From Thermococcus sp. (GTDB lineage Archaea; Methanobacteriota_B; Thermococci; Thermococcales; Thermococcaceae): a stretch of DNA of 64,000 bases. The stretch is from assembly GCF_026991495.1 (NCBI RefSeq), contig NZ_JALXBJ010000035.1, positions 2,512 through 66,511 of the forward strand, read 5' to 3'. This document shows positions 47,630 to 63,696 of the stretch, piece by piece. Positions within the stretch are counted from its first letter, which is position 1. Each line of letters starts with the position of its first letter. Made by a program: the position numbers and the translations under genes. The notes beneath the pieces were generated by a model. That model worked only from the letters and a program-made list of their open reading frames with translations. It did not search any database and had not been told where the DNA came from.

Positions 47630-49468
47630 GTGAGCCTAATGAAGGAAGATTACCCGAAGTTGTTCGAGCCTATAAACATCGGAAAGGTCCAGCTCATGAA
47701 CAGGGCGGTATTCCCGCCGATATCGACGAACTTCGCCCTGGAGAACGGCAGACTGACGGAGAAGTTCGTCAAACACTACGAGAGGCGCGCGAGGGGCGGC
47801 GTCGGCCTGATAATCGTCGAGAACACTTCCATAGACTTCCCGGAAGGAAAGCACATGCCCTTCCAACCGAGGATAGACTCAAAGGCCGTCCTCAAGGACT
47901 GGGAGTGGTTAGCTTTTGAGGTGCACAAGCACGAGGGGGTTAAGCTCTCCATCGAGCTCGCCCACGAAGGGTGGAAGAAGATAGGCGTCGACTACCTCTC
48001 ACCCGAGAAGGTGGAGGAGCTTGTGGAGAAGTTTGTCTATTCCGCGAGATTGGCTATGGAAGCGGGATTCGACATGGTTGAGATTCAGGGCGCTCACGGT
48101 CTCCTCGTGAACCAGTTTCTGTCGCCTCTGACCAACCACCGCGACGACGAGTGGGGTAAGCCGACGAGGTTCGCGGTTGAGGTGAGGAAGCGCATAGCGG
48201 AGGAATGCGGCCGGGACTTCCCGGTTACGATAAGGCTCGCGGTGGACGATTTCCTTGAGGGTGGAATAAACCTGAGAATGGGGCGCGAGATAGCCCTGGA
48301 GCTTGCCAAAGCGGGCTACGACATGATACAGGCCGATATTGGATTAGGCCCAAAGGAGAAGCGCCTTGAGCCGATGCACTATCCCCAGGCATGGCGCGCC
48401 TATTTAGCGGAAAAGATAAGGCCCCTACCGGTTCCGGTGGCGGCGGTGGGAATGATAAGGGAGCCAAAAGTTGCGGAGAGGGTTCTTGAGACTCAAGCTG
48501 ATCTCGTTGTCCTCGGAAGGACGCTCATAGCGGACCCGGACTGGGTGAAGAAGGTCGCCGAGGGGAAGGAGCACCTCATAAGGCGCTGCATAGGCTGCAG
48601 CGAGTGCATCAAGGCAGTCCACGACGAGAAGGGGCCGATAAGGTGCGGTGCCAACGCCAACGTCGGGAACGAGGAAGATATACCAAATGCTCCGAGGAAG
48701 CGCGTTTTGGCGATAATCGGTGCAGGCCCAGGAGGACTAGAAGCAACGAGGGTGGCGGCGCTCAGGGGGCACGAGGTTCACCTCTTCTACGAGGTCTTCG
48801 GCGGCCAGCTCGTCCTCGCGAAGGTGCCGCCGGGAAAGGAGAAGATAGGCTGGCTCATCGAATACTACCGGAACGTCCTCTCGGAGATGCCCAACGTCCA
48901 CCTCCACGAGGGGAAGGCTGCCAAGGAGGGCGTCATGAAGCTCAACCCGGAGGCCGTGATAATAGCCACCGGCGCGAACCCGATACTCCCCTGCTCCGGC
49001 GAGAGGGGTCTAATAATCCCCTTCGACAGAATCCTCCGGGGAGAGGTGAAGGTCGAGGGCAAAGAAGTCCTCATCGGCGGTGGGGGGCTCGTGGGAGTGG
49101 AGACGGCCCTCTACTTAGCCCAGTTCAACAACCGCGTGAAGATAATCAAGCGCAGTCCCGCGGTGCTTCCAAACGTCGAGAGGATAACCCGCGGCTACCT
49201 CCTGAGGGAGCTTGAGGAGAAGGGGATTCCGATTTTGACCGGCAGGAGCTTCGTCAGTGCCGGAGACGGCTACGCCATCGTCGAGAACACCGAGACCGGG
49301 GAGAAGGAGATGATAAAGTGCGACGTCATCGTTGGGGCCTTCGGCATGAGACCGTATGTTCCCTTCGTCATAGACGGCGTTGAGTACCACATAATCGGGG
49401 ACGCCAAGTCCGTGAGGAACATAGCGAGCGCCGTCAGGGAAGGCTACGAGGTCGGGAGGAAGCTCTGA
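47630..49468 (+). CDS. NADH:flavin oxidoreductase, Fe-S flavoenzyme (enoate / 2,4-dienoyl-CoA reductase family)
   Basis: TIM-barrel start LFEPINIG, AGFDMVEIQGAHG, NHRDDEWG, CIGCSEC..C cluster motif, GAGPGG FAD site, GGGLVG. Confidence 0.9.
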   Translation: MSLMKEDYPKLFEPINIGKVQLMNRAVFPPISTNFALENGRLTEKFVKHYERRARGGVGLIIVENTSIDFPEGKHMPFQPRIDSKAVLKDWEWLAFEVHKHEGVKLSIELAHEGWKKIGVDYLSPEKVEELVEKFVYSARLAMEAGFDMVEIQGAHGLLVNQFLSPLTNHRDDEWGKPTRFAVEVRKRIAEECGRDFPVTIRLAVDDFLEGGINLRMGREIALELAKAGYDMIQADIGLGPKEKRLEPMHYPQAWRAYLAEKIRPLPVPVAAVGMIREPKVAERVLETQADLVVLGRTLIADPDWVKKVAEGKEHLIRRCIGCSECIKAVHDEKGPIRCGANANVGNEEDIPNAPRKRVLAIIGAGPGGLEATRVAALRGHEVHLFYEVFGGQLVLAKVPPGKEKIGWLIEYYRNVLSEMPNVHLHEGKAAKEGVMKLNPEAVIIATGANPILPCSGERGLIIPFDRILRGEVKVEGKEVLIGGGGLVGVETALYLAQFNNRVKIIKRSPAVLPNVERITRGYLLRELEEKGIPILTGRSFVSAGDGYAIVENTETGEKEMIKCDVIVGAFGMRPYVPFVIDGVEYHIIGDAKSVRNIASAVREGYEVGRKL

Positions 49469-49546
49469 GCTTTCCCTCCGCTTTTTAATTCTCCATTTCA
49501 TGGAAAAGCTGATTAACCCTTCCTACCAAAGGCCACCGTGGTCGAG

Positions 49547-49828
49547 ATGCGCCGGGTCTGGTGTGGTGAAAACGGGGCCGGGATTAGCAGTGAGGCCCTA
49601 CAGGAAAGGGTCAGGGAAATCCTCTCAAGGGCAGAACTCGTCAGGAGGGGAGGGAAGGTACTCATCCTCGTGGATGGGGAAAGGGTTGGAAAGCTGAGGT
49701 TCGAGACACCATTAGAGGAGCTTGAGGTCGAGAGCGCATGGAAGAGTCCCTTCGGGATAAAGGTCGAGCTGAGCTGGCGCGGAAGGTTCGCAGGGACGCT
49801 CCTCCTGAGGGAGTGGCATGAAAGCTAA
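49547..49828 (+). CDS. Uncharacterised small beta-rich protein, paralog of 60762-61076
   Basis: Overlaps the MFS gene start; visible similarity to the 60762-61076 product. Confidence 0.65.
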   Translation: MRRVWCGENGAGISSEALQERVREILSRAELVRRGGKVLILVDGERVGKLRFETPLEELEVESAWKSPFGIKVELSWRGRFAGTLLLREWHES

Positions 49829-50954
49829 GGAGCTCCTGAAGTTCGAGTTCCTGAGTCAGGGGAGCATAGGGGCCGCTGAAGGGCTTGCCGAGGCCTTCTT
49901 CGGCGTGATTATGACAAGGATGGGCGCTTCAGCCTTCATGCTGGGCCTTCTCGGTAGTTCAGCCTACGTCTCGAACCTCTTCTCACCCATCTGGGCGAAA
50001 GGTTCGCGAAAGACCGGGGCAAAGAAGCTCGTTATGGGCTCTTTAATCCTCGCCTCGCTGTTTCTTCTCATGAGCGCCTTCACCGAAAGCGCGGTTCCCT
50101 TCCTGATCTTCGTCTTCCTCTACTACATCGCCTACGGCGTCAGGGAAGTCCTCTACCCTTTGATAGTCGAGAGGGTCTACGGCTACCTTGAGGCCCTCGG
50201 GCACGCTGAGGTGGCCTACACGATAGCCTACACCGTTGCCGCTGGGATAGCGGGCTACGTGATGGACTCGTGGGGCCATAGAATAGCTTTCTTCGCCGCC
50301 TCACTTCTTCTCCTCCTCGCGGCGCTCTCTCGACTTCCCTTCCCGGACGTTAAGAGCGACGCCGAGGAAAAGGTCGAGCCACCCTACAGGGACAAGCTAA
50401 TCCTCAGGATGGTCGCGATGTTCATGGTAGCTGGAACCGGCATGCTGATGATGCTCCCAGCAATTCCAATCCTTGAGGTTAGGGCCTTGGGCCTCTCCAA
50501 CGGGGTCATAGGCATCGCTATAGCAATCAACAGCCTCTCCTACGTGCTCTTCTCAGAGCTGTGGAGCAGACTCATAAAGAGACCATCACACGTGGTCAGG
50601 GTCTTTCAGGCGGGCTTTACGGCGCTCTTCCTTATGGCACTCACCTACTACCTCAGCAGTTCAGCCCTCTATATCTACCTCGCGGGGGTTCTCTGCGGCC
50701 TCGGCGGTTCCGCCGTTTCAATAGGCTGGCAGGCCTTCTCGATGGGCGTTCCCGATTACAGGACTGAGGACTTATCGGCCCTCCACCTGACGACCTGCGG
50801 GATAAGGGGCCTCTACGCGCCCATCTTAGGTGCGGTCTTTATAAGGTGGCTCGGCCTCAGGGAGACCTTTCTTTTGGCAGGTTTGCTCTTAATTGGGGGA
50901 ATAATTTTAACGGAGAGCGTGATCAGGCCCCTCAGGGAGGAGTTTGAGCTTTAA
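49818..50954 (+). CDS. MFS transporter
   Basis: About 12 TMs; GYVMDSWGHR motif-A-like loop. Confidence 0.8.
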   Translation: MKAKELLKFEFLSQGSIGAAEGLAEAFFGVIMTRMGASAFMLGLLGSSAYVSNLFSPIWAKGSRKTGAKKLVMGSLILASLFLLMSAFTESAVPFLIFVFLYYIAYGVREVLYPLIVERVYGYLEALGHAEVAYTIAYTVAAGIAGYVMDSWGHRIAFFAASLLLLLAALSRLPFPDVKSDAEEKVEPPYRDKLILRMVAMFMVAGTGMLMMLPAIPILEVRALGLSNGVIGIAIAINSLSYVLFSELWSRLIKRPSHVVRVFQAGFTALFLMALTYYLSSSALYIYLAGVLCGLGGSAVSIGWQAFSMGVPDYRTEDLSALHLTTCGIRGLYAPILGAVFIRWLGLRETFLLAGLLLIGGIILTESVIRPLREEFEL

Positions 50955-51036
50955 TGAGTTCCCATTTCTGTCCACAACCTTTGGTTTGTGAAAACCTTTT
51001 ATATGGAAAAATTTTCATAAAATTAGGTGAGTCGTA

Positions 51037-51489
51037 ATGCCCTACCTGATAGTCCACGAGGAGGGATGTATAGGCTGCCACACCTGCGAAATGGTCTGCT
51101 CCCTGAGCCATGAAGGGGTAATAAACCCAGACCTCTCAAGAATCCACGTCTTAGGCTACAAGGGCGAGAAGTTCCCGGTAATGTGCCTCCAGTGCGAGGA
51201 CGCCCCCTGTGAGCTCGTCTGCCCGATGGAAGCAATCCACATGCAGAACGGCGTGAGGATGGTGGACGACGAGAAGTGCATAAGGTGCAAGATGTGCACA
51301 CTCGTCTGCCCGGTTGGGGGCGTTCTCTACGACTACATCAACAACAAGATGATAAGGTGCGACCTCTGCGGCGGCGACCCCCAGTGCGCCAAGTACTGCC
51401 CGATGAACGTTATAGAAGTCGTGCAGGATGAGAAAGTTCCCGAGGCGAGGAAGAGGGGAGTTAGGGTTCTCTACGGGGAGGCCGATTAA
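51037..51489 (+). CDS. 4x[4Fe-4S] polyferredoxin (DmsB/HydN-like small subunit)
   Basis: CIGCHTCEMVC, CLQCEDAPCELVCP, CIRCKMCTLVCP, CDLC..PQCAKYCP. Confidence 0.93.
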   Translation: MPYLIVHEEGCIGCHTCEMVCSLSHEGVINPDLSRIHVLGYKGEKFPVMCLQCEDAPCELVCPMEAIHMQNGVRMVDDEKCIRCKMCTLVCPVGGVLYDYINNKMIRCDLCGGDPQCAKYCPMNVIEVVQDEKVPEARKRGVRVLYGEAD

Positions 51490-51490
51490 A

Positions 51491-53296
51491 ATGTTCGGCT
51501 ACGCCGGGAAAATACTCTTTATAGACCTGACCTCCCGGGTCGTTAGAACAGAACCCACGGAGAAGTACGCCGCGGACTTTCTCGGCGGGAGGGGGATAGC
51601 GACAAAGATAGCCTACGACCTCATACCAGCCGAGGCAGACGCCTTCGACCCCGAAAATGCCCTCGTAATGATGACCGGTCCCCTGACTGGAGCCGCTCCC
51701 TCAAGTTCGAGGATAGACGTCGTCTCCCTCTCCCCGGTCACCAACCTCCTCGGCGGGAGCAGTGCTGGAGGCGACTTCGGGGCGGTTCTCAAGTTCGCCG
51801 GCTACGACGGGATAGTCATCACTGGAAAGGCCGAAAAGCCCACTGGAATCCGCATCATAGACGACGAGGTCACCTTCCACGATGCCGAGCACTGCTGGGA
51901 GTACGACGTTTACGACACCGTTGACTGCATCAAGAGGCTCGGCAGGGAGGACGTCCAGGTTGCGTGCATAGGAAAGGCCGGGGCAAACCTCGTAAAAACA
52001 GCAGGGATAAGCTTCTCAAAGCGCAACCTCGCGGCCAGAGGTGGCCTTGGGGCTGTAATGGGGAGCAAGAACCTCAAGGCGATAGCGGTCGCCGGAACGA
52101 AGGGAATAAAGGTCCGGGACACGAAAAGGCTGATGGAGACCAACCTCGAAATCGAACGGAGGATGCTCGAAAGCCCCTCCTTCAAGAAGTACGAGAGCTG
52201 GCACGCGAACATCTCGCTCTCCCTTCTCAAGGCACGGAGACCTTATTTCGGCGACTACGAGGAGGAGTTCTGGGAGGAAGCGGAGGAGGCAGCCAAGAAC
52301 GCCAAGAGGTTCTTCGAGGAGATGGCAAAGGTGAGGCCCAACAGCTGCTTCGCCTGCCCGCTGAGGTGCTGGGCGTGGGTGGAGTATAAAGGCGAAGAGG
52401 CTCCCATGGTGGCCTGTCAGGGAACTTTTCCCGCGATAATCTTCATCCTCAAGATAAAGGACCCCGAGCTGGCCTGGAAGGTCTATCTAAGGCTCCAGAA
52501 GGAAGGACTGGACATAATGAGCACCGCTGCCGTTATAGCCTACGCATCAAGGGTCGGCCTCGTCAGGCTCGGGAGCGGGGAGATACTGAAGCTCATAGAC
52601 GAGATAGTGAACCGCGAGGGGCCGGGCAACGTCTTAGCTGAAGGCGTCAAGAAGGCGAGCGAGCACTTTGGAGTTCCAGCGGTCTACGTCAAGGGCGGAA
52701 TGGAGTCGTGGAGCAGCGACGTAAGGCCTTTCAGGGGCGTCTCCCTCGCCGGAGCGGTCTCTGAGAGCGGGAGCATCAGCAGGGCCATACACGGCTTCCC
52801 GGAGTCCTCCTACTACACGAAGCCGGAGAAGGCCAAGAAGGTCGCGAAGGAGATAGTCGGTGACGAGAGCGCCGCCGAACCAAGCAGTTACCGGGGCAAG
52901 GCCAAGCTCGTGGCCTACTTCGAGGACGAGCACATAATAGCGGACTCCCTCGGCGTCTGCGACACCCCTATGCTCTCAATCCCCTTAGAGCTGTGGGCGG
53001 AGGCACTGAGCGCTGCAACCGGGATGGAGTTCACACCGGAGAAGCTCCACTTCTACGCCGGGAAGATAAGGACGCTTGAGAGGATGTTCAACGTGCGCAG
53101 GGGCGTTGACCGGGAGAAGGACACCCTCTCGGAGAGGCTCTTCAGGAGCGTAATCCGCTCCGGCCCCTGGGCCGGAGTTGGCATAGACAGGGAGAAGTTC
53201 GAGGAGATGAAGCTTGAGTACTACGGGCTGAGGGGCTGGGACGAGAACGGAATCCCGACAGAGGAGACGCTTGAGAGGTACGGCCTTGAATGGTGA
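51491..53296 (+). CDS. Tungsten aldehyde:ferredoxin oxidoreductase (AOR/WOR) family large subunit, copy 1
   Basis: MFGYAGKILFIDL, FLGGRG, TGPLTG, SPVT, RGGLGAVMGSKNLKAI, CFACPLRC, DSLGVC, YYGLRGWDENGIPT. Confidence 0.93.
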   Translation: MFGYAGKILFIDLTSRVVRTEPTEKYAADFLGGRGIATKIAYDLIPAEADAFDPENALVMMTGPLTGAAPSSSRIDVVSLSPVTNLLGGSSAGGDFGAVLKFAGYDGIVITGKAEKPTGIRIIDDEVTFHDAEHCWEYDVYDTVDCIKRLGREDVQVACIGKAGANLVKTAGISFSKRNLAARGGLGAVMGSKNLKAIAVAGTKGIKVRDTKRLMETNLEIERRMLESPSFKKYESWHANISLSLLKARRPYFGDYEEEFWEEAEEAAKNAKRFFEEMAKVRPNSCFACPLRCWAWVEYKGEEAPMVACQGTFPAIIFILKIKDPELAWKVYLRLQKEGLDIMSTAAVIAYASRVGLVRLGSGEILKLIDEIVNREGPGNVLAEGVKKASEHFGVPAVYVKGGMESWSSDVRPFRGVSLAGAVSESGSISRAIHGFPESSYYTKPEKAKKVAKEIVGDESAAEPSSYRGKAKLVAYFEDEHIIADSLGVCDTPMLSIPLELWAEALSAATGMEFTPEKLHFYAGKIRTLERMFNVRRGVDREKDTLSERLFRSVIRSGPWAGVGIDREKFEEMKLEYYGLRGWDENGIPTEETLERYGLEW

Positions 53297-55047
53297 TGGC
53301 GATGTTCGGCTACACTGGAAGGATACTCTTCGTTGATTTGAGCTCGAAGACGGTAAAAACCGAACCCACCGGGAAGTACGCGGGGGACTTCCTCGGCGGA
53401 AGGGGAATAGCGACGAGAATACTCCACGAGGACCCCGATGCCCTAATTTTCATGACCGGCCCGCTGACTTCGTTCGTGCCCTCAGGCTCAAGGATGGATG
53501 TAGTTGCAGTATCCCCTGTTACGGGACTTATCGGCGGAAGCAGCACCGGCGGGGAGTTTCCCTCCGCCCTGAAGTTCGCAGGCTACGACGGAGTTGTGGT
53601 GACGGGAAAGGCTGAGAAACCCGTCTACCTGAGGATAGAAAACGAGGAGGTCTCGATAGAGAGCGCCGATGGAATATGGGGCCTCAGTGCCTTCGAGACG
53701 ATAGATGTCCTAACCAGGGGACACCCAGACCTCAAGGTGGCCTGCATAGGCAGGGCAGGGGAGAACGGCGTGAAGTTCGCGGGGATTTCCTTCTCCCACA
53801 GGAACCTCGCCTCCCGCGGCGGCCTCGGGGCCGTGATGGGTGCCAAGAAGCTCAAGGCCATCCTCGTCCACGGGACGAGGGGAGCGAGCCCTTATAACCC
53901 GCTGGAGCTCATGTCGGTCTTCGAGGAGATACAGGAGAGCATAACCAACAGCGGAGAGTTCCTCCGCTTCAAGAACTGGCACGTGGACTTTGTACCTGTA
54001 ATACTCCAGCTTAGAATGCCCTACTTCGGGGACTACGAGAGGGAGTGGGAGAAGGCGGAAGAGGCTGCCATGAAGGCTAAGAAGTTCTTTGAGGAGCACA
54101 CCGTTGGGAGGGCGAGCTGTTTCTCCTGTCCGCTGAGGTGCTGGGGAATCGTCAGCTACAGAGGTGAGACGCTCCCAATAAACCTCTGTCAGGGGACTTT
54201 TCCAGCGGTGACTTTCACGCTGAAGGTGGAGGATCCAGAGCTGGCCTGGAGAATATACCGGAAGTGCCAGAGCGAAGGGCTTGACATGATGGCCACGGTT
54301 GCCGTTGTAGCCTACGCATCGAGGCTCGGAAAGGTGAGGCTCGGGAGCGAAGAAATCCTCGACTTCATCGAGAGGATCGTGAAGAGGGAAGGAGAAGGCG
54401 ACGTTTTTGCAGAGGGAGTTAAGAAGGCGAGCGAGCACTTTGGAGTTCCAGCGGTCTACGTCAAGGGCGGAATGGAGTCGTGGAGCAGCGACGTAAGGCC
54501 GTTCGTTGGCTCCGCTCTCATCTCTGCCGTTGCCGACTCGGGTGGAGTTAACAGGGCCCTCTACGGATTCCCCGAGTTCTACTACTACGTCAAAAAAGAG
54601 CAGGCCGAGAAGATGGCCAGGATGTTCGTCGGAGACGTTGAGGCAGCATATCCGTGGAGCTATTCTGAAAGTAAGGTCCGCTTCGCGGTCCTCTGGGAGA
54701 ACCTGCACATAATAGCGGATTCCCTTGGGGTCTGCGTCATAGCGCTTTTGACGACCCCACTCAAGCTCTGGGCCAAAGCCTTCAAGGCAGTAACCGGGGA
54801 AGGCATAACCGAGGACGAGTTTATGAGAACCGCCGAGAGGATAAGAACCCTTGAGAGGCTCTTCAACCTCAGGCACGGGGACGGAAGGGACGACCTGTCG
54901 CCGAGGCTCTTCAAAGGCGAGGTGAAGCTCGATAGGGAGAAGCTTGAGGGGATGAAGAGGCTTTATTATTCACTCCGGGGATGGGACGAGAACGGCGTCC
55001 CGACCCGGGAAACCCTTGAAAAGCTCGGGCTGGGTGATTTGGCATGA
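53296..55047 (+). CDS. Tungsten aldehyde:ferredoxin oxidoreductase (AOR/WOR) family large subunit, copy 2
   Basis: MFGYTGRILFVDL, RGGLGAVMGAKKLKAI, CFSCPLRC, DSLGVC, YYSLRGWDENGVPT; start overlaps the copy-1 stop. Confidence 0.93.
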   Translation: MAMFGYTGRILFVDLSSKTVKTEPTGKYAGDFLGGRGIATRILHEDPDALIFMTGPLTSFVPSGSRMDVVAVSPVTGLIGGSSTGGEFPSALKFAGYDGVVVTGKAEKPVYLRIENEEVSIESADGIWGLSAFETIDVLTRGHPDLKVACIGRAGENGVKFAGISFSHRNLASRGGLGAVMGAKKLKAILVHGTRGASPYNPLELMSVFEEIQESITNSGEFLRFKNWHVDFVPVILQLRMPYFGDYEREWEKAEEAAMKAKKFFEEHTVGRASCFSCPLRCWGIVSYRGETLPINLCQGTFPAVTFTLKVEDPELAWRIYRKCQSEGLDMMATVAVVAYASRLGKVRLGSEEILDFIERIVKREGEGDVFAEGVKKASEHFGVPAVYVKGGMESWSSDVRPFVGSALISAVADSGGVNRALYGFPEFYYYVKKEQAEKMARMFVGDVEAAYPWSYSESKVRFAVLWENLHIIADSLGVCVIALLTTPLKLWAKAFKAVTGEGITEDEFMRTAERIRTLERLFNLRHGDGRDDLSPRLFKGEVKLDREKLEGMKRLYYSLRGWDENGVPTRETLEKLGLGDLA

Positions 55048-56258
55048 GGCACGTTATTATAGGCGCAGGCGGGGCTGGAACCGCCGCGGCTGAGACGATA
55101 AGGGCCAACTCCGAGGACGAGGTTGTGGTCATAAACAGGGAGAAGACCCTTCCTTACTCGCCGGCGGCCCTGCCCTACTACATAGAGGGGACGGTAAAGG
55201 GAAACGAGCTCTTCATCTGGAACTGGCACTTCGTCCGCTCCAACGGCATAGACTACATCATGGGCAGGGAGGTCGTTAAGGTTGACACGGAGGCCAAGAA
55301 GGTCATCCTCGACAACGGGGAGGAGATAGACTACGACAGGCTCCTCATATCGAGCGGTGCAAAGCCCAACATAATCCCTCAGTTCAGGAGGGAGAACGTC
55401 ATAGGCGTCAGAACCCTAGAAGACGCCGAGAGGCTCAGGAAGGTGCGCGGGAGGGCGATAATAATCGGCGCCGGTCCTGTGGCTGTTGAGACCGCGATAG
55501 CCCTGAAAAGGCTCGGGGCCGATCCCGTGATAATCTGCCGTTCGAGGATCCTCAGGAGGCTCTTCGACGAGGACATCTCGGACATCATAAGGGACGTGAT
55601 GATACTGAACGGCGTCAAGGTTCTCTTCGAGAAGAGCATAGACCTAGTGGGCGACCCGGTTGAAGGTGTTAAGGCCCCCTGCGGTGTCATCTACGGCGAC
55701 ATCGTGGTCGCGGCGATCGGCGTGAGGCCCAACCTGAGCTTTCTCGACGGAAGGATAGCCCTGGGAGACAGAGGCGGCATACTCACTGACGAGAGGATGA
55801 GGACGAACGTGGAAGATGTGTACGCAGCGGGGGACTGCGCCGAGACGCGCGACCTGGTAACCGGTCGCTACGGCATCTTCGCCATCTGGCCGCTTGCGAG
55901 GGAGCAGGGAAGGGTTGCCGGCTACAACATGCTCGGCGTTGAGAAGCGCTACCGCGGTTCGATAAACATGAACATAATAACCATATTCGACAGGGTCTTC
56001 GCGTCCATAGGAACTTTCATCGGGGCAAGGAAGGAAGTGTGGCACGGCTCGCACATAGCAAAGCTCTTCATCGAGAACGGCAGGCTGAACGGGGCACAGC
56101 TCGTCGGCAAATACGCCCTCCAGTACGCGGGGGCCGTCGAGTACCTCGTCAGGACGAGGAGGCCAGTCAAGATAGACTCGATGAGCGACACGAAGTCCTT
56201 CGTGAGGGAAGTCTGGGAGCAGGTCGGGGCGGAGGTCAGTCAAAGGACGCCGTCTTGA
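55044..56258 (+). CDS. FAD-dependent pyridine nucleotide-disulfide oxidoreductase family protein (NAD(P)H electron-transfer subunit)
   Basis: GAGGAG FAD site, YDRLLISSGA, GAGPVAVE, VYAAGDCAE; no NADH-oxidase/CoADR redox Cys (PYSPAALPY). Confidence 0.9.
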   Translation: MRHVIIGAGGAGTAAAETIRANSEDEVVVINREKTLPYSPAALPYYIEGTVKGNELFIWNWHFVRSNGIDYIMGREVVKVDTEAKKVILDNGEEIDYDRLLISSGAKPNIIPQFRRENVIGVRTLEDAERLRKVRGRAIIIGAGPVAVETAIALKRLGADPVIICRSRILRRLFDEDISDIIRDVMILNGVKVLFEKSIDLVGDPVEGVKAPCGVIYGDIVVAAIGVRPNLSFLDGRIALGDRGGILTDERMRTNVEDVYAAGDCAETRDLVTGRYGIFAIWPLAREQGRVAGYNMLGVEKRYRGSINMNIITIFDRVFASIGTFIGARKEVWHGSHIAKLFIENGRLNGAQLVGKYALQYAGAVEYLVRTRRPVKIDSMSDTKSFVREVWEQVGAEVSQRTPS

Positions 56259-57718: not shown

Positions 57719-58744
57719 TTAAGCTGGAACCTCGATTTCCTCCCCAGTTATCTCGCACTTCCAGAGCGAGGCGATTTTCCTCCACGCCTTGACGTAGCCG
57801 ACAAGGAAAGGTATCTGAACTATTGGAGTCACCGCTGGAGCGATTGCCATGAGGCCAGTTCCAGCAGCCAAAGCGATTGCCATAGCGGTTCCCTCGTTCT
57901 TTCCGACCGAGGTGAAGGTTATCGCCATGTGGTCTTTGTAGGGCACCCCAGCCCCCTTGTCAACGAAGGTCATGAAGAGGAGGGCGATTACGTAGTAGAG
58001 GACCAGCGGGATTAACGCTAATCCGACGATGCTGGGCTTGCTGGCTATGAGCCTCGCCTTCTCCATGAAGATGAGGAAGACGATGGTGTACATGCCGAGG
58101 AGGGAAATGGCCGGGAAGGCTGGCTTGATCCTGAGGAAACCCTCGGGGCCGAGCTTGCTCATCAGGTAGGCCCTCGTGAGGACGCCGAGTATCATCGGCG
58201 TTATGACGACTATGAGGATTGTCTTGACGAGGAGCCAGACCGAGATTGAGACGTGGTAGCTCGATGCAAAGATCTTAAGCCACGCCGGGACGGTGACGAT
58301 AGCTAAGGTGAAGCTCAAAGCTACAACGATGGTTGCGAGCTCGATGTTACCCCTTGTGAAGCCCGTGTAGGCTATGCTCATCGAGGAGCAGGGGACGACT
58401 ACCGCTAAGAGAAGTCCGAGGGCGAGCATGTGGTTAACCGGGTGGAAGAGCTCTGTCAGCCATATCGCACCGTACATGATGAGCGGGGAAATTACAAGCC
58501 CCATGGTGAGGGCTATGGCTAACTGCTTTCCGAGCTTGGCGCTGTTCTTGAGCTCGCCGAGGCGGAGGTTTATCATCATCGGGTATATCATGCTGATGAC
58601 TACGAGCATGTTGAGGGTCTTGAGCGTTCCCTTGTAGGCCTCTACGTTGGCGTGAGTTCCTACGTAGAAGCCCGCTATCATGGCGAGCGTCACGTAGACC
58701 GGGAGGTACTTGTCGAGGTGGTTCTTAAGCCTGAGCCAGTTCAT
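57719..58744 (-). CDS. acr3: ACR3 family (arsenite-efflux-like) transporter, Cys-retaining
   Basis: MIYPMMINL, VVPCSSMSIAYTG..GN, KNEGTAMAIA, PIVQIP. Confidence 0.75.
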   Translation of the reverse strand: MNWLRLKNHLDKYLPVYVTLAMIAGFYVGTHANVEAYKGTLKTLNMLVVISMIYPMMINLRLGELKNSAKLGKQLAIALTMGLVISPLIMYGAIWLTELFHPVNHMLALGLLLAVVVPCSSMSIAYTGFTRGNIELATIVVALSFTLAIVTVPAWLKIFASSYHVSISVWLLVKTILIVVITPMILGVLTRAYLMSKLGPEGFLRIKPAFPAISLLGMYTIVFLIFMEKARLIASKPSIVGLALIPLVLYYVIALLFMTFVDKGAGVPYKDHMAITFTSVGKNEGTAMAIALAAGTGLMAIAPAVTPIVQIPFLVGYVKAWRKIASLWKCEITGEEIEVPA

Positions 58745-59229
58745 CTCCTACCACCCCCGCACCTGCACCTGGTCTTTATTATCAGGACGGGCCTGAAGGT
58801 CTTCTTCAGCACGCGCATCGTCGTCGAACCGAAGAGCTCGTGCGAGAAGCCCATCTTCCCGTGGCTCGGGAGGATTATGAGGGAGACGTCCTCTTCCTCC
58901 GCGACCCTGACTATCTCCTCCCAGGGCTCCCCAAACCTCACAATCGGGGTCACCTTAGCGGCGTTGAACGTCCTCTTGACGTCCTCGACCTTCGCCTGGA
59001 GCTTTTCCATTGCCTTCTCCCTGAGCTTTTCCTTTATCTCCTCAAGCTCCATCTCCCCGTTCTTGTAGAGGAGGGAGTAGCCGTTCATGAGCTCCTCCAT
59101 GGTTCCCTCATCAATGACGTGGAGGAGGACAACTTCACCCACAAGCATCTCGTTGATGCTTTCGAAGCGCTTGGCGGCCTTGTAAGCCCCCTCGCTGAAG
59201 TCCGTTGGAAAGAGCACCTTTCTAAACAT
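58741..59229 (-). CDS. Universal stress protein
   Basis: MFRKVLFPTDFS, GEPWEEI, SHGKMG..GSTTMRVLK..PVL. Confidence 0.92.
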   Translation of the reverse strand: MFRKVLFPTDFSEGAYKAAKRFESINEMLVGEVVLLHVIDEGTMEELMNGYSLLYKNGEMELEEIKEKLREKAMEKLQAKVEDVKRTFNAAKVTPIVRFGEPWEEIVRVAEEEDVSLIILPSHGKMGFSHELFGSTTMRVLKKTFRPVLIIKTRCRCGGGRR

Positions 59230-59279
59230 CTCGCATCACCTCATATGTTTATTTTTTCATTTTAAAGTGAGTTCACCGA

Positions 59280-59293
59280 TTAGGAGCACCTAA
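59280..59293. promoter_or_regulatory. Inverted repeat TTAGG-N4-CCTAA just downstream of the usp-acr3 TATA box
   Basis: TTAGG AGCA CCTAA, a few nt 3' (minus strand) of TTTAAAAA. Confidence 0.5.
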
Positions 59294-59337
59294 CCATTTT
59301 TAAACTTTTTTGGTCAAAATTGGGTAATAAAGTACAC

Positions 59338-59694
59338 TCAACTCCCGAGCATCCCTTCAACTTCCTTCACAATGCGCGCCGCCGCAAGGCCTATGTCCTC
59401 AACAACGTTAACATCGGGATGTTCGTAACACTGGGAGGCCCCCAGCTCCTCTTCGAGGTTTATGTACTCGTCGTAGCGGATGCCGAGCTTTTCGGCGGTC
59501 TCCTTAGCGCAGTCCTTGGAGCAGGCGTCTATCAGAAGCACCTTTGAGCGGCCTTCAAGGCACTCCGGCTGGCTCTCCCCAAGCCTCTCAAGGACGACGG
59601 CCTTTGCCCTCTCCCCGAGAACCTTGAGCGCCTCCCTAACCACGATCTCCGCGAGGGAGTTGGAGCAGACGAATATGCAGACGGCAGTGCTCAT
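59338..59694 (-). CDS. DGC-domain putative zinc-binding protein
   Basis: CIFVCSN, LIDACSKDCAK (DGC-like, reads DAC), EYINLEEELG. Confidence 0.7.
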   Translation of the reverse strand: MSTAVCIFVCSNSLAEIVVREALKVLGERAKAVVLERLGESQPECLEGRSKVLLIDACSKDCAKETAEKLGIRYDEYINLEEELGASQCYEHPDVNVVEDIGLAAARIVKEVEGMLGS

Positions 59695-60707
59695 TCTCCA
59701 TCACCCCCTGCAACGGCGGGAGTACCTGCTGTAACCCTACCCCTGAGGATGTTGAAGAGCCTGACGAAGAATATCATGAGCAGCATGTCGCTGAAGGGTC
59801 CGCCGAGGGCGGTTCCAACTGCGGCGAGAGGGCCGAAGGTTCCAATCGCTATCGCCGTCGCCAGCGTCATGTTAGAGCCGGTTGAATAGACGAGGGAGAC
59901 GTTCTGGTCGAAGGGGAAGCCGAGGGACTTTCCGGAGAAGTAAGCTATGGCCGCGCGCAGGATGAAGTAGACGTTCATTATCACCGCCCCGGCCAGTATG
60001 AACTCGGGTCTCTCGGCTATCATCTTTCCATTTATTCCGAAGACTATGGGAAGCATCAGGTACATGCCGAGGAGCGAAACCCCAACGAGCGGTTCTTTGA
60101 GCCTCATAAAGGCATCAACCCCTTTCCAGCGCAGAACGGCGTATTTGGTGAGCTGGCCTACGACCAGGGGGGTTATTATGTAAAGGACGAGGGACTTGAG
60201 AAGGACCACCATCGGGACCTCAATGACCGTGTGGAGTATGAGCTTCGCGTAAACCGGCATGACGAAGAGCGACAGCAGGAACGTCCAGATGACGCCGACG
60301 AGAGTGAGCTGGAACTTGCCGCCGGCCAAATTCGTGAACGCTGGGGCCGAACTCGGGAGCGGTGCGAGGCTTATGAGGACCATCCCCGCGACGAGTCTCG
60401 GGTCGCTGTTCGGCAGGAGGGCCAGCCAGAGCTTCAGGAACGCCCACGTCAATGTCGGAAACAGGGCTATGTAAAATAGCGTCACGAGGATGAGATACTT
60501 CTTCTTCACTTCGGTGCTCTTCGTGAAGGCCTTCCTTATGTCCATGTAGACCATCGGCTGGAACAGCATCATGAACAGCGAAACGGGGAGCAGCCACTTC
60601 AGCGAGATGAAAAGTTCTCTGTGGTAAACCCCCGCATAGCTCGACAGGGCTATGAGGACAAAGACTATGTAAACCATCTTATCCCTCATGAAGGCAACGA
60701 CTCCCAT
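59691..60707 (-). CDS. ACR3 / bile acid:Na+ symporter family transporter, lacking the Cys
   Basis: FMMLFQPMV, LAPLPSSAPAFTNLAGG, GSNMTLATAIA. Confidence 0.72.
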   Translation of the reverse strand: MGVVAFMRDKMVYIVFVLIALSSYAGVYHRELFISLKWLLPVSLFMMLFQPMVYMDIRKAFTKSTEVKKKYLILVTLFYIALFPTLTWAFLKLWLALLPNSDPRLVAGMVLISLAPLPSSAPAFTNLAGGKFQLTLVGVIWTFLLSLFVMPVYAKLILHTVIEVPMVVLLKSLVLYIITPLVVGQLTKYAVLRWKGVDAFMRLKEPLVGVSLLGMYLMLPIVFGINGKMIAERPEFILAGAVIMNVYFILRAAIAYFSGKSLGFPFDQNVSLVYSTGSNMTLATAIAIGTFGPLAAVGTALGGPFSDMLLMIFFVRLFNILRGRVTAGTPAVAGGDGE

Positions 60708-61207: not shown

Positions 61208-61546
61208 GTGTTGGGAATGCCGAGGTGGATGAGGGCTGATAAAAGCAACCTGAAGGCCCTCATGATGGCGCTCAAGCCCCTTTTGGCTGAGCCTAAGAGG
61301 AGCATAATCAGAATTCTGAGTGAAGGCGTGAAGGGCACGAACGAACTATATGAAGCTTTAAAGGAGCGCGGGCTTGAGATGCCGCGTTCAACGCTCTACT
61401 ACCACCTCTCGGCCCTCGAAGACGCAGGGATAATCGAGATGGCCGGCTACCGCGAGGAGGGCGGCGGCGCCCCGGAAAAGCTCTGGAAGCTGAAGGTCAG
61501 GAAGATGGGGATAGACCTCGTTACAGGAAAAATTTTCAAGGAGTGA
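61208..61546 (+). CDS. ArsR-like winged-helix transcriptional regulator (no Cys)
   Basis: PKRSIIRILSEG..ELYEAL..RSTLYYHLSALEDAGII..G.PEKLWKL. Confidence 0.85.
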   Translation: MLGMPRWMRADKSNLKALMMALKPLLAEPKRSIIRILSEGVKGTNELYEALKERGLEMPRSTLYYHLSALEDAGIIEMAGYREEGGGAPEKLWKLKVRKMGIDLVTGKIFKE

Positions 61547-61603
61547 GCGTGCATATGCACAAGGTTTATATTTGAAAAGACATTCATGAGTGTGGTGGTG
61601 AAG

Positions 61604-61999
61604 ATGAGGATCGCGATCCCCGCTGAGGACGATAGAGGTCTTGAGAGCAGCGTCAGCGGCCACTTCGGAAGGGCAAAGTACTTCGTCTTCGTTGATATCG
61701 AGGACAACGAGATTAAGGGCCATGAGGTCGTTGAGGTTCCCTTCGAGGAGCACGGACCCGGAGACCTACCGGGCTTCGTGAAGGAGCACGGCGGAGAGGT
61801 CGTCTTAGCCTACGGCATGGGAAGGAAGGCTGTGGGCTACTTCAACGACTTTGGAATAGCGGTCGTTACCGGTGCCTACGGACCGATTAAGGACGTTGTT
61901 AAGGCCTTTATAGAGCAGGTTCTCGAAGTCGACCCCAACTGGAGGGAAAAGATAGAACGGGAGAAAAAGCACGGGGGAAACTGCGAAAAGCGAGAATAG
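61604..61999 (+). CDS. NifB/NifX (dinitrogenase Fe-Mo cofactor-binding fold) family protein
   Basis: RIAIP..SGHFGRAKYF..VLAYGMGRKA..F..GI.V. Confidence 0.88.
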   Translation: MRIAIPAEDDRGLESSVSGHFGRAKYFVFVDIEDNEIKGHEVVEVPFEEHGPGDLPGFVKEHGGEVVLAYGMGRKAVGYFNDFGIAVVTGAYGPIKDVVKAFIEQVLEVDPNWREKIEREKKHGGNCEKRE

Positions 62000-63657: not shown

Positions 63658-63696
63658 TCCCATCAAAGGGGAATAATATGAATTTAATTTAAGATT

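What the first reader, a model, noticed from the sequence alone, without database searches (positions are those of the whole stretch)
51037..56258. Four-gene tungstoenzyme operon with two tandem WOR subunits that both replace the AOR 'EYE' motif with Cys
Seen: polyferredoxin - WOR1 - WOR2 - FAD/NAD(P) reductase, joined by 1-nt gaps or stop/start overlaps. Both large subunits keep CxxCxxxC and DSLGVC, but 16 residues after the third Cys both read C-Q-G-T-F (MVACQGTF, INLCQGTF) and neither has a GPEYE motif. The first DxxGLD motif is QxxGLD in both. Known: Pyrococcus AOR has a catalytic Glu in this region; class II benzoyl-CoA reductase BamB has a Cys ligand to tungsten; an FeS+WOR+FAD-subunit layout is known from bacterial NAD-linked AOR. 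Inference: this is a heteromeric, NAD(P)-linked, possibly Cys-ligated tungstoenzyme distinct from the classical AOR/FOR/GAPOR/WOR4/WOR5 set, and probably not a plain aldehyde oxidase. It is the best candidate for an undescribed system here.
Basis: partly seen in the sequence, partly recalled or inferred. Interest (0 to 1): 0.85.

Follow-up and report, generated by a model that had tools for sequence, protein, structure and literature searches.

The report
Cysteine-type tandem tungsten oxidoreductase operon
This is a conserved four-gene operon from a hydrothermal-vent Thermococcus that encodes an uncharacterised tungsten-type enzyme: its two duplicated catalytic subunits carry the metal-binding cysteine of benzoyl-CoA reductase instead of the aldehyde-oxidising residues, so it probably acts on something other than aldehydes.

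Summary
Window 51037-56258 holds four co-directional genes:
- a 4x[4Fe-4S] polyferredoxin;
- two paralogous AOR/WOR-family large subunits, A (601 aa) and B (581 aa), 57-59% identical;
- an FAD/NAD(P) reductase.

Both large subunits keep the four cluster cysteines and the pterin-binding residues. Both lack all four aldehyde-oxidase second-shell residues (Thr243, Glu313, Tyr427, His448 in PfAOR numbering).

Both have a Cys exactly 16 residues after the third cluster Cys. Spacing, a 175-sequence MAFFT alignment and profile-profile alignment all place it on BamB Cys322, the tungsten ligand.

The proteins form a small, tight clade (bootstrap 100, about 61 clusters at 90% identity). That clade lies inside a Cys-bearing branch that includes BamB (58 of 59 with Cys, versus 0 of 116 elsewhere). 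They lack BamB's proton/Zn motif and its bifurcation partners. Their accessory subunits are instead AorA- and AorC-like.

The tandem large-subunit pair occurs only in this subclade. All four genes are under purifying selection.

Neighbours recur across archaea and bacteria: DGC-domain proteins, ArsR regulators, ACR3/SBF-like and ArsP-like permeases, ABC-2 exporters, Usp and Suf-like genes.

Best reading: an NAD(P)(H)-linked, Cys-ligated tungstoenzyme for a non-aldehyde substrate, probably within a toxic-anion or metalloid stress island. The substrate is unknown. I rate it a new variant of a known kind.

The parts
50973..50990 (.). Conserved imperfect inverted repeat CACAACCTTTGGTTTGTG just upstream of the promoter; candidate regulator-binding site
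   Evidence: Read directly. The core AAC(C/T)TT(T/A)GGTTT recurs at the same place upstream of the polyferredoxin gene in L002, L003, L170 (P. horikoshii) and L171 (T. profundus), even where the preceding gene differs. Function is inferred.
50990..51006 (+). Archaeal BRE/TATA-like promoter GAAAACCTTTTATATGG, about 30-45 nt upstream of the polyferredoxin ATG; AGGTGA ribosome site at 51025-51030
   Evidence: Read directly. Conserved in four related loci. No transcript data could be found.
51037..51489 (+). WorS/AorA-type polyferredoxin, 150 aa, 16 Cys in four CxxCx(2-5)CxxxC motifs (four [4Fe-4S] clusters); no Tat signal
   Evidence: Pfam Fer4 families. Best solved relatives are AorA 8c0z_C (118 bits) and AmWOR1 WorS 9mqx_E (113 bits); BamC scores only 31 bits. 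Motifs listed. dN/dS 0.107 against L002.
51491..53296 (+). WorL-A, 601 aa: AOR/WOR-family pterin subunit with cluster Cys286/289/293/490, candidate metal-ligand Cys309 (codon 52415-52417), Gln310, QKEGLD and DSLGVC
   Evidence: Pfam AFOR_N + AFOR_C. PDB hits. AlphaFold model pLDDT 94.4 and pTM 0.94. TM-score 0.88-0.91 to AORs and 0.84 to BamB. Cys309 pairs with BamB Cys322. dN/dS 0.057.
53302..55047 (+). WorL-B, 581 aa (alternative ATG at 53290): paralogue of WorL-A (57-59% identical) with cluster Cys273/276/280/478, candidate ligand Cys296 (codon 54187-54189), QSEGLD and DSLGVC; an 11-residue N-domain loop is missing relative to A
   Evidence: Pfam. PDB alignments including BamB. A and B are sister groups, bootstrap 100. 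dN/dS 0.083. The B type occurs alone with a polyferredoxin in T. profundus.
55044..56258 (+). WorN/AorC-type FAD/NAD(P)(H) reductase, 404 aa. The redox-active Cys of NADH oxidase/CoA-disulfide reductase is replaced by Ala (SPAALPYY). A conserved CR[ST]R..LRR follows the second Rossmann strand.
   Evidence: Pfam Pyr_redox_2. NCBIfam best hit is PadH. PDB: AorC 8c0z_E 150 bits, level with NADH oxidase 6ruz. Motif conservation. dN/dS 0.064.
49538..50954 (+). Small conserved ORF (96 aa, 49538-49828) overlapping the start of an MFS transporter gene (378 aa, 49818-50954), directly upstream; possibly associated
   Evidence: Pfam MFS_1. The same small-ORF + MFS pair lies upstream of the cassette in L002, P. 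horikoshii and T. profundus, and 3 kb upstream in L004.
47630..49468 (+). FMN/[4Fe-4S]/FAD flavoenzyme of the 2,4-dienoyl-CoA reductase / enoate reductase (OYE-FadH) family, 612 aa; variable neighbour
   Evidence: Pfam Oxidored_FMN + Pyr_redox_2. NCBIfam hits (bilirubin reductase, BaiCD, FadH-like) are all below cut-off. Present near the cassette in 4 of 19 loci: window, L002, L085, L171.
57719..60707 (-). Recurrent neighbour block: ACR3/SBF-like transporter (57719-58744), universal stress protein (58741-59229), DGC-domain protein (59338-59694), second ACR3/SBF-like transporter (59691-60707)
   Evidence: NCBIfam acr3 gives only 111 and 76 bits against a cut-off of 283. DGC is Pfam PF08859. The same families recur next to the cassette in other genomes.
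61217..63663 (.). ArsR-family regulator (61217-61543, +), NifX-like Nitro_FeMo-Co protein (61586-61996, +), SufD-like (62003-62950, -) and SufC-like ABC ATPase (62950-63663, -)
   Evidence: Pfam. Membership of clusters that recur beside the cassette in 3-9 of the 17 loci (ArsR type 3, NifX-like 5, SufD-like 5, ABC ATPase 9). In the single-copy relatives these genes sit in the same + strand run as the WOR cassette.

Best explanation
The four genes form one operon for a soluble multi-subunit pterin oxidoreductase built like the NAD-linked AorABC enzyme. An FAD subunit exchanges electrons with NAD(P)(H), possibly NADPH. A polyferredoxin with four [4Fe-4S] clusters wires it to two paralogous catalytic subunits. 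Each catalytic subunit carries one [4Fe-4S] cluster and a bis-pterin metal centre, with tungsten expected in a Thermococcus.

The catalytic subunits are not of the aldehyde-oxidising type. They belong to the branch that contains the benzoyl-CoA reductase subunit BamB. They carry a cysteine at the position of its tungsten ligand, followed by an invariant Gln-Gly-Thr. They have none of the Thr/Glu/Tyr/His residues used for aldehyde oxidation. They also lack BamB's proton-relay/Zn residues and its electron-bifurcating partners, so benzene-ring reduction is not expected either.

The most likely role is NAD(P)H-driven reduction, or NAD(P)+-linked oxidation, of a small non-aldehyde substrate. The recurrent neighbours are ArsR regulators, ACR3-like, ArsP-like, TauE and TehA-like anion exporters, ABC-2 exporters, DGC-domain proteins, Usp, OsmC and Suf-like genes. 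These point to a toxic oxyanion, metalloid or sulfur species handled as part of a stress or detoxification island.

**Shown:** gene content, motifs, homology, clade placement, synteny and purifying selection.
**Inferred:** complex formation, the metal, Cys ligation, nucleotide use, direction of the reaction and substrate class.
For: - **Domains and motifs:**
- **Cys on the BamB Cys322 position:** equal 16-residue spacing; same MAFFT column; hhalign probability 100.
- **Second-shell residues:** absent in 19/19 clade members, while cofactor-binding residues are kept.
- **Tree:** the clade has bootstrap 100 and lies inside a 59-sequence group with BamB, 58 of which carry the Cys (bootstrap 54). 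None of 116 other family members carries it.
- **Isolation of the clade:** bit scores drop from 566 to 376 outside it.
- **Accessory subunits:** closest to AorA/WorS and AorC. The flavoprotein lacks the redox Cys.
- **Fold:** confident AOR fold, pLDDT 94.
- **Selection:** dN/dS 0.06-0.11 for all four genes.
- **Cassette conservation:** found in Thermococcus, DHVE2/Aciduliprofundum, P. horikoshii and another lineage. A single-L version occurs in Hadarchaeaceae and Thermodesulfobacteriota-type contigs.
- **Neighbour families, 253 ORFs in 17 loci:** DGC 17, ABC_tran 16, ArsP_1 11, SBF 11, HTH_5 9, PF04060 9, Usp 7. TauE and SLAC1/TehA-like genes occur in P. horikoshii and T. profundus.
- **Literature:** a Cys-type clade-41 WOR showed no activity on 46 aldehydes (PMC13328260).
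Against: - No biochemical, structural or expression data exist for any member. No RNA run was found.
- The link to BamB rests on a neighbour-joining tree with only 54% bootstrap, plus the shared Cys.
- The overall fold is slightly closer to AORs (TM 0.88-0.91) than to BamB (0.84).
- The ACR3-like proteins score far below the ACR3 cut-off (111 and 76 bits against 283). ArsR, ArsP_1 and SBF are broad families, so the 'metalloid/oxyanion' reading is circumstantial.
- Neighbours also include Fe-S assembly genes, OsmC and an OYE-type flavoenzyme, which fit other stories.
- Some aldehyde-active family members deviate from the canonical second shell: GAPOR keeps only Thr and Glu (PMC12096430).
Confidence: 0.55

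Rival explanations
1. It is an ordinary NAD(P)+-linked aldehyde oxidoreductase (a Class III WOR like Aromatoleum AorABC) with a divergent active site, detoxifying aldehydes or other electrophiles alongside the neighbouring OYE-type flavoenzyme and OsmC.
For: - Same subunit set, with AorA- and AorC-like partners.
- Fold closest to AORs.
- An OYE/FadH-type enzyme and OsmC lie nearby in some loci.
- Nearly all characterised family members oxidise aldehydes (PMC13328260, PMC12096430).
Against: - All four second-shell residues are missing in 19/19 members, and a Cys occupies the BamB ligand position.
- The Cys-type clade-41 enzyme had no activity on 46 aldehydes (PMC13328260).
- The OYE gene is present in only 4 of 19 loci.
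Confidence: 0.15
2. It is a BamB-like dearomatising or enoyl reductase acting on an activated aromatic, heteroaromatic or CoA-ester substrate, with the adjacent OYE/dienoyl-CoA-reductase-type flavoenzyme handling the diene product.
For: - It groups with BamB and shares its Cys.
- The nearest outgroup clade sits beside HdrA/MvhD/hydrogenase-like modules, as BamB does.
- An OYE/FadH-family enzyme lies upstream in the window, L002, L085 and T. profundus.
Against: - BamB's invariant Glu251/His255/Glu257/His260 are not conserved (PMC12096430).
- There is no bifurcation module, and NAD(P)H is too weak a reductant for benzoyl-CoA (-622 mV; PMC12096430).
- No CoA ligase, hydratase or other ring-pathway family reached the 25 most frequent Pfam families in either half of the 253 neighbouring ORFs.
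Confidence: 0.08
3. The complex serves Fe-S cluster or metal-cofactor biogenesis, for example by supplying sulfide or electrons. In the single-copy relatives the cassette lies in one gene run with IscA-like, Mrp/ParA, NifX-like, DGC, SufC and SufD genes.
For: - Gene order in L081 and L087: IscA-like, DGC, DGC, ParA/NUBPL, NifX-like, polyFd, WOR, FAD reductase, DUF3335, SufC, SufD, all on one strand.
- SufCD-like and NifX-like genes also lie near the cassette in the window, and SufCD-like genes in P. horikoshii.
Against: - No known Fe-S assembly pathway needs a pterin enzyme.
- The Suf-like genes could equally be there to mature this cluster-rich enzyme, or to repair clusters damaged by the same stress.
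- In Thermococcus they are on the opposite strand, 5 kb away.
Confidence: 0.1
4. Only one of the two large subunits is catalytic; the other is a structural or electron-relay paralogue.
For: - The two copies differ at about 41-43% of positions.
- B lacks an 11-residue loop in the N-terminal domain.
- The window has only one polyferredoxin gene for two large subunits, whereas the 95%-identical relative L002 has two.
Against: - Both keep all four cluster Cys, the ligand Cys, R76/D343/D489 equivalents and the CQGT motif.
- Both are under equally strong purifying selection.
- The B type occurs alone with a polyferredoxin in T. profundus, and single-copy relatives are equidistant from both.
Confidence: 0.1

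Closest known systems
AorABC, the NAD+-linked tungsten aldehyde oxidoreductase of Aromatoleum aromaticum (PDB 8C0Z; 'Class III WOR', WorL-WorS-WorN)
   Same: Same three kinds of subunit in one operon. The polyferredoxin and the FAD subunit are the nearest or near-nearest solved relatives of AorA (118 bits) and AorC (150 bits). It is likely to use the same electron path: NAD(P) - FAD - [4Fe-4S] chain - W.
   Different: - The catalytic subunits belong to another branch. They lack Thr243/Glu313/Tyr427/His448 and carry a Cys at the BamB ligand position.
- There are two different large subunits rather than one.
- The genomic context is ArsR/anion exporter/DGC rather than phenylalanine catabolism.
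[quoted passage not shown]
   Same: Shares the Cys at the W-ligand position with identical spacing from the cluster motif, the loss of the aldehyde-oxidase second shell and a non-Asp residue at the first pterin motif. It groups in the same Cys-bearing branch.
   Different: - Only about 27% identity and TM 0.84.
- The Glu251/His255/Glu257/His260 motif is absent.
- The partner polyferredoxin is AorA-like, not BamC-like.
- There are no Hdr-like or bifurcating subunits, and an NAD(P) flavoprotein takes their place.
YdhV (E. coli) / CsWOR41, 'Class V' Mo/W enzymes of unknown function with a Cys ligand
   Same: A Cys ligand and absence of the AOR second shell. There is no aldehyde activity in the one member tested (PMC12096430, PMC13328260).
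   Different: - YdhV is 700 aa, with its Cys 22 rather than 16 residues after the cluster motif.
- It is not grouped with this clade with any support.
- Class V has a Tat-signal small subunit and membrane partners. Here the polyferredoxin has no Tat signal and the partner is a soluble flavoprotein.
Pyrococcus furiosus AOR (PDB 1AOR) and the classical Thermococcales set (FOR, GAPOR, WOR4, WOR5/ASOR)
   Same: Same fold (TM 0.91), the same [4Fe-4S] ligands and pterin-binding residues, and the same kind of host.
   Different: About 30% identity. Different active-site residues, extra subunits, NAD(P) rather than ferredoxin as the likely partner, and tandem paralogues.

Membership tests
AOR/WOR family of pterin oxidoreductases | N-terminal and C-terminal AOR domains (Pfam PF02730 + PF01314; IPR013983 + IPR001203) | tested here: met
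   Both large ORFs match both domains over their full length. The model has TM 0.82-0.91 to all solved family members.
AOR/WOR family of pterin oxidoreductases | Four Cys ligands of the [4Fe-4S] cluster and the pterin/Mg-binding residues (PfAOR C288/C291/C295/C494, R76, D343, D489) | tested here: met
   Conserved in 19/19 clade members including A and B. D338 is Gln.
AOR/WOR family of pterin oxidoreductases | Bound W (or Mo) bis-pyranopterin cofactor | not testable with these tools
   Needs metal analysis of purified protein.
Aldehyde-oxidising AORs (AOR sensu stricto and relatives) | Second-shell Thr243, Glu313, Tyr427, His448 (PMC12096430, PMC13328260) | tested here: not met
   The columns read His, Gln, Ser/Met and variable in the clade. 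The rest of the family sample has Thr 91/116, Glu 72/116 and His448 105/116.
Class III WOR (WorL + WorS + WorN; PMC13328260) | Adjacent genes for a four-cluster polyferredoxin (IPR017896) and an FAD/NAD(P)-binding subunit (IPR023753) | tested here: met
   16 Cys in four motifs. Pyr_redox_2. AorA- and AorC-like. The extra feature is a second WorL.
Class III WOR (WorL + WorS + WorN; PMC13328260) | NAD(P)+ as electron carrier; subunits co-purify | not testable with these tools
   Inference only. The Arg-rich motif after the NAD(P) beta-strand hints at NADPH.
Class II benzoyl-CoA reductase catalytic subunit BamB | Cys322 ligand to tungsten | tested here: met
   C309 (A) and C296 (B) align with C322 by spacing, MAFFT and hhalign. 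Actual ligation is not testable here.
Class II benzoyl-CoA reductase catalytic subunit BamB | Invariant Glu251/His255/Glu257/His260 (Zn site and proton conduit; PMC12096430) | tested here: not met
   The columns hold hydrophobic, Lys/Ser and Tyr/Phe residues in the clade.
Class II benzoyl-CoA reductase catalytic subunit BamB | BamC (three-cluster) partner and BamDEFGHI bifurcation module encoded nearby | tested here: not met
   The polyferredoxin has four clusters and scores only 31 bits to BamC. No Hdr/Nuo-like module was called in the loci with per-gene Pfam annotation, and none reached the most frequent neighbour families. The 631-aa outgroup clade does have one.
Class V WOR (YdhV type) | Small subunit with a Tat signal and/or membrane partners | tested here: not met
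   The polyferredoxin starts MPYLIVHEEGC, with no twin-arginine motif. No membrane anchor gene is in the operon.

The most novel reading that the evidence does not exclude
This clade is a third, unrecognised line of Cys-ligated tungsten enzymes besides BamB and YdhV. Its members would be NADPH-driven reductases of an inorganic oxyanion or metalloid (arsenate, antimonate, selenate, tellurate or a sulfur oxyanion). That would supply the reductase missing from ars-like islands in which no classical arsenate reductase was noted, in vent archaea and some anaerobic bacteria. It would be the first AOR-fold enzyme acting on an inorganic substrate. The A/B pair might give two substrate specificities on one electron wire.
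Probability: 0.15. Interest if true: 0.85.

Novelty: new variant of a known kind. Interest (0 to 1): 0.62.

Why it matters
Only a handful of the 92 published WOR clades have a known role, and all but one of the characterised enzymes oxidise aldehydes. A 2025 review states that the metal-binding cysteine is confined to the BamB and YdhV clades.

This operon shows a further, well-separated Cys-bearing clade. It combines that catalytic type with the simple NAD-linked AorA/AorC module, and it has duplicated its catalytic subunit. That makes it a tractable entry point to non-aldehyde chemistry in this family: four genes, a soluble enzyme, and a version present in the culturable P. horikoshii and T. 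peptonophilus.

Its fixed association with regulators and exporters typical of metalloid and anion stress gives a concrete, testable list of candidate substrates.

Tried and rejected
- **Literature.**
  - The 'WOR83' search found nothing relevant.
  - The Schut 2021 tree paper is not held, by DOI or PMC id.
  - The supplements of PMC13328260 hold none of the UniProt accessions or organism names, so the published clade number (13, 67 or other) could not be fixed.
  - Searches linking AOR-family enzymes with ACR3/ArsR/arsenic or DGC domains returned nothing useful.
  - No 'WOR6/WOR7' naming exists.
  - The Wolframiiraptor paper does not discuss this clade.
- **Tungsten storage idea.** I checked whether the NifX-like neighbour might be a tungstate store like Tub. 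Tub is a TOBE protein, so it is unrelated.
- **Transcription.** No RNA run holds the locus. DNA runs only show a hydrothermal-vent origin.
- **True ACR3.** Rejected as a firm call: 111 and 76 bits against a cut-off of 283.
- **Classical arsenate reductase nearby.** No ArsC, LMW-phosphatase, ArsA or ArsM family appeared among the most frequent neighbour families. Only the 25 most frequent families per half are returned, so single occurrences could be hidden.
- **Fold comparison.** It does not separate BamB-like from AOR-like proteins, because all have TM above 0.8.
- **Apparent tandem AOR genes in L011 and L062.** These are split fragments of single genes.

Full report
**1. What is in the sequence**

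The window carries four co-directional ORFs on the + strand between 51037 and 56258.
- 51037-51489: a 150-aa protein with ferredoxin dicluster domains.
- The two large ORFs: complete AFOR_N + AFOR_C architectures.
- 55044-56258: a pyridine-nucleotide-disulfide-type flavoprotein (Pfam).

The small protein has 16 cysteines in four CxxCx(2-5)CxxxC motifs, enough for four [4Fe-4S] clusters, and it has no Tat signal.

The longest ORF for the first large subunit starts at 51428. All homologues begin MFGY..., which puts the start at 51491, one base after the polyferredoxin stop. A GGAGG lies 11 nt upstream.

The second large subunit most likely starts at 53302 (MFGYTG). GGTGA lies 5 nt upstream, and the start is five bases after the WOR-A stop. 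The in-frame ATG at 53290 would overlap WOR-A by 7 nt.

The flavoprotein ATG overlaps the WOR-B stop as ATGA. A B12-binding radical-SAM gene converges on the 3' end and overlaps it by 23 bp, so the unit ends at 56258.

Upstream of the polyferredoxin there is a BRE/TATA-like GAAAACCTTTTATATGG (50990-51006) and an imperfect inverted repeat CACAACCTTTGGTTTGTG (50973-50990). Both are conserved in four related loci, even where the preceding gene differs. The four genes therefore look like a self-contained operon. No transcript data could be found.

**2.

All are present.

| Feature | WOR-A | WOR-B |
|---|---|---|
| Cluster motif | CFACPLRC at 286 | CFSCPLRC at 273 |
| Cys 16 residues after the third cluster Cys | Cys309 (MVACQGTF) | Cys296 (INLCQGTF) |
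| First pterin motif | QKEGLD | QSEGLD |
| Second pterin motif | DSLGVC | DSLGVC |

Neither protein contains EYE.

**3. Where the cysteine falls**

I rebuilt reference sequences from the HMMER alignments to solved structures. I then checked them against published numbering. PfAOR E313, T243, Y427, H448 and C288/291/295/494 all come out right, as does BamB C322.

- In BamB the tungsten-ligand Cys322 lies exactly 16 residues after the third cluster cysteine (C306). This is the same spacing as in WOR-A and WOR-B.
- A MAFFT alignment of 175 family members puts the WOR-A and WOR-B cysteines in the same column as BamB Cys322.
- That column is PfAOR Tyr312. The next column, PfAOR Glu313, is Gln in both proteins.
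- A profile-profile alignment of the clade against BamB and its relatives pairs V-A-C309 with M-K-C322 at probability 100.

**4. The rest of the active site**

Across the 19 clade members in the sample:
- the four cluster cysteines and the R76, G95, D343 and D489 equivalents are invariant;
- D338 is always Gln;
- Thr243 is His in 17/19;
- Glu313 is Gln in 19/19;
- Tyr427 is Ser or Met in 18 of 19 (Thr in one);
- His448 is variable.

In the 116 family members outside the Cys branch:
- Thr is present in 91;
- Glu is present in 72;
- His448 is present in 105;
- none has Cys at the ligand column.

BamB's invariant Glu251/His255/Glu257/His260 form its Zn site and proton conduit (PMC12096430, section 17). 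In this clade they are replaced by hydrophobic, Lys/Ser and Tyr/Phe residues.

The proteins thus share with BamB and YdhV the Cys and the loss of the aldehyde-oxidase second shell. They do not share BamB's specific catalytic residues.

**5. Phylogenetic position**

- A full HMMER scan of 1.84 billion representatives found 9,489 family members.
- After the WOR-B-type cluster (710 bits) and one 618-aa cluster (566 bits), scores fall to 376 bits and then decline smoothly.
- In the 90%-identity database the clade amounts to about 61 clusters and about 250 sequences.
- A neighbour-joining tree (623 columns, 100 bootstraps) gives 100% support for the clade.
- Within it, support is 100% for WOR-A-type plus WOR-B-type as sisters. 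This means a tandem duplication after the split from the single-copy 618-aa form.
- The clade nests in a 59-sequence group that includes BamB, 58 of which carry the Cys. That grouping has only 54% support. YdhV is not placed with any support.
- The nearest outgroup is a 631-aa clade at about 36% identity. One representative lies beside HdrA-, MvhD- and hydrogenase-like genes, which is a BamB-style context.

[quoted passage not shown] This clade extends that picture.

**6. Structure**

- An AlphaFold2 model of WOR-A built on a 66-sequence alignment is confident: pLDDT 94.4 and pTM 0.94. Cys309 sits between a strand (302-307) and a helix (312-319).
- Foldseek finds every solved family member. 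TM-scores are 0.91 for C. autoethanogenum AOR and PfAOR, 0.89 for AorB, 0.88 for AmWOR1 and 0.84 for BamB.
- The fold is ordinary and does not discriminate between subfamilies. I could not measure distances in the model.

**7. Accessory subunits**

- The polyferredoxin's best solved relatives are AorA (8c0z_C, 118 bits) and the AmWOR1 small subunit (113 bits). BamC scores 31 bits.
- The flavoprotein matches AorC (8c0z_E, 150 bits) as well as it matches NADH oxidases and CoA-disulfide reductases.
- The redox-active Cys of those enzymes is Ala here (SPAALPYY). The flavoprotein is therefore an electron-transfer flavoprotein rather than a disulfide reductase.
- Its best NCBIfam hit is PadH, the NADH-reducing FAD subunit of phenylglyoxylate dehydrogenase, below cut-off.
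- A CR[ST]R..LRR motif follows the second Rossmann strand throughout the clade. By the usual Rossmann-fold rule this hints at NADPH. That is an inference only.

The operon meets the gene-level definition of a 'Class III WOR' (WorL + WorS + WorN) in PMC13328260. That paper lists Class III in clades 13, 67 and 87, with AaAOR as the only characterised example, and it does not mention tandem large subunits. I could not map this clade to a published clade number.

**8. Conservation of the cassette**

| Loci | Organism | Arrangement |
|---|---|---|
| L001-L003 | Thermococcus MAGs (82-96% identity) | polyFd-A-B-FAD |
| L004-L006 | DHVE2/Aciduliprofundum MAGs (about 72% identity, a different phylum) | polyFd-A-B-FAD |
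| L085 | a further lineage | polyFd-A-B-FAD |
| L170 | P. horikoshii | polyFd-A-B-FAD |
| - | T. peptonophilus | adjacent accession numbers for A and B |
| L171 | T. profundus | polyFd + a B-type subunit only |
| L081-L083, L087-L094 | single-copy 618-aa form; related proteins are labelled Hadarchaeaceae and Thermodesulfobacteriota | polyFd-WOR-FAD |

- Among 166 fetched loci with an AOR-family gene, two adjacent full-length genes occur only in this subclade, in 7 loci. Two other apparent cases are split genes.
- dN/dS between the window and its 95% relative is 0.107 (S), 0.057 (A), 0.083 (B) and 0.064 (N).
- Both paralogues are therefore maintained.
- The B type can evidently work without A.

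**9. Neighbourhood**

I clustered ORFs from 17 clade loci and scanned 253 neighbours within 9 kb.

| Family | Count |
|---|---|
| DGC-domain proteins | 17 |
| ABC ATPases | 16 |
| ArsP_1 permeases | 11 |
| SBF/ACR3-like transporters | 11 |
| ArsR-type HTH_5 regulators | 9 |
| PF04060 Fe-S proteins | 9 |
| Usp | 7 |
| ABC-2 membrane proteins | 7 |
| SufBD-like | 5 |
| OsmC | 5 |

NifX-like proteins, DsbD, thioredoxin and DUF169 also recur.

- The window itself has the following:
  - two ACR3/SBF-like genes;
  - Usp;
  - a DGC protein (57719-60707, minus strand);
  - an ArsR-type regulator;
  - a NifX-like protein;
  - SufD- and SufC-like genes (61217-63663).
- P. horikoshii and T. profundus add TauE (sulfite-exporter family) and SLAC1/TehA-like anion channels.
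- Some ArsR neighbours of the single-copy form carry a CxC motif (…DLCPCVL…) before the DNA-binding helix. From my own knowledge, this resembles the metalloid-binding site of ArsR/CadC-type sensors.
- No ArsC, LMW-phosphatase, ArsA or ArsM family appeared among the most frequent neighbour families. Only the 25 most frequent families per half are listed.

The caveats are real.
- The ACR3-like proteins score 111 and 76 bits against a cut-off of 283.
- These are broad families.
- In the single-copy form the cassette is embedded in a run of Fe-S-assembly-like genes.
- An OYE/FadH-type flavoenzyme and an MFS transporter with a small conserved ORF accompany it in some Thermococcales.

**10. Interpretation**

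Shown:
- a conserved, selected operon for polyferredoxin, two Cys-type WOR large subunits and an AorC-like flavoprotein;
- a position in the BamB-related Cys branch, outside all characterised aldehyde-oxidising clades;
- absence of both the aldehyde-oxidase residues and the BamB-specific residues;
- a recurrent regulator/exporter/stress neighbourhood.

Inferred:
- an AorABC-like complex in which NAD(P)(H), FAD, the four-cluster wire and the subunit cluster connect to two Cys-ligated W centres;
- a non-aldehyde, non-benzoyl-CoA substrate.

The potential of NAD(P)H and the lack of a bifurcation module argue against ring reduction. The neighbours make a toxic oxyanion, metalloid or sulfur species the leading guess.

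My rough probabilities:
- about 0.3 for that whole substrate class, of which about 0.15 for a specifically inorganic oxyanion or metalloid;
- 0.15 for a plain aldehyde oxidoreductase;
- 0.08 for a BamB-like organic reductase;
- 0.10 for a role in Fe-S or cofactor biogenesis;
- the remainder for some other, unidentified substrate.

The 0.10 I give to the rival 'only one large subunit is catalytic' is a separate question and is compatible with any of these substrates.

**11. Novelty and verdict**

The subunit scheme (Class III WOR) and the Cys ligand (BamB, YdhV) are each known. Three things appear undescribed in the literature I could reach:
- the combination of the two in a distinct, rare clade;
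- the tandem A/B pair;
- the conserved stress-island context.

I rate this a new variant of a known kind, and interesting because it is a compact system for finding non-aldehyde chemistry in the family.

Noticed in passing
L002:6920-7465 (also L001:280-888), compared with window 50955-51036: The 95-96% identical Thermococcus relatives carry an extra polyferredoxin paralogue (about 40% identical to the operon's) between the MFS gene and the operon. The window has only an 82-bp spacer there. Subunit stoichiometry (one or two polyferredoxins for two large subunits) therefore varies between close strains.
   Followed up: partly
L171:8460-10761 (Thermococcus profundus): This cultured species has only a polyferredoxin and a WOR-B-type subunit, with no WOR-A and no FAD reductase. 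It still has the same upstream OsmC-OYE-small ORF-MFS genes and the same downstream ABC-2, SBF, Usp, DGC, TauE, ArsR, NifX-like and SLAC1 genes.
   Followed up: partly
window 47630-49468 (+): A 612-aa FMN/[4Fe-4S]/FAD enzyme of the 2,4-dienoyl-CoA reductase / enoate reductase family. Its best NCBIfam hits (bilirubin reductase, BaiCD, mycofactocin FadH/OYE) are all far below cut-off. It recurs next to the cassette in L002, L085 and T. profundus. Its substrate is unknown.
   Followed up: partly
window 49538-49828 and 49818-50954 (+): A 96-aa ORF with no family match overlaps the start of an MFS transporter gene by 11 nt. The pair is conserved upstream of the cassette in P. horikoshii, T. profundus and L002, and nearby in a DHVE2 contig (L004).
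   Followed up: partly
window 56236-57669 (-): A B12-binding radical-SAM protein (closest models HpnJ/BchE-type, below cut-off) converges on the operon and overlaps the FAD-reductase 3' end by 23 bp. It is also present in L002 but not in the more distant loci.
   Followed up: no
L004-L006 (DHVE2/Aciduliprofundum MAGs) compared with window 51037-56258: The whole four-gene cassette is about 70-80% identical in protein between Thermococcus and DHVE2 archaea of another phylum. This suggests lateral transfer among vent archaea.
   Followed up: no
L081:4447-13879 and L087 equivalent: In the single-copy relatives the cassette lies in one strand-consistent run: IscA-like, DGC, DGC, ParA/NUBPL-type ATPase, NifX-like, polyFd, WOR, FAD reductase, DUF3335 (peptidase C39-like), SufC-like, SufD-like. 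It is unclear why a pterin enzyme travels with an Fe-S assembly set.
   Followed up: partly
L169:164-8914: The nearest outgroup clade (631-637 aa, Cys in a T-[ST]-C-E-P motif) sits downstream of HdrA-like, MvhD, hydrogenase small and large subunit-like genes and a polyferredoxin. This is a BamB-style bifurcating context in an uncharacterised clade.
   Followed up: no
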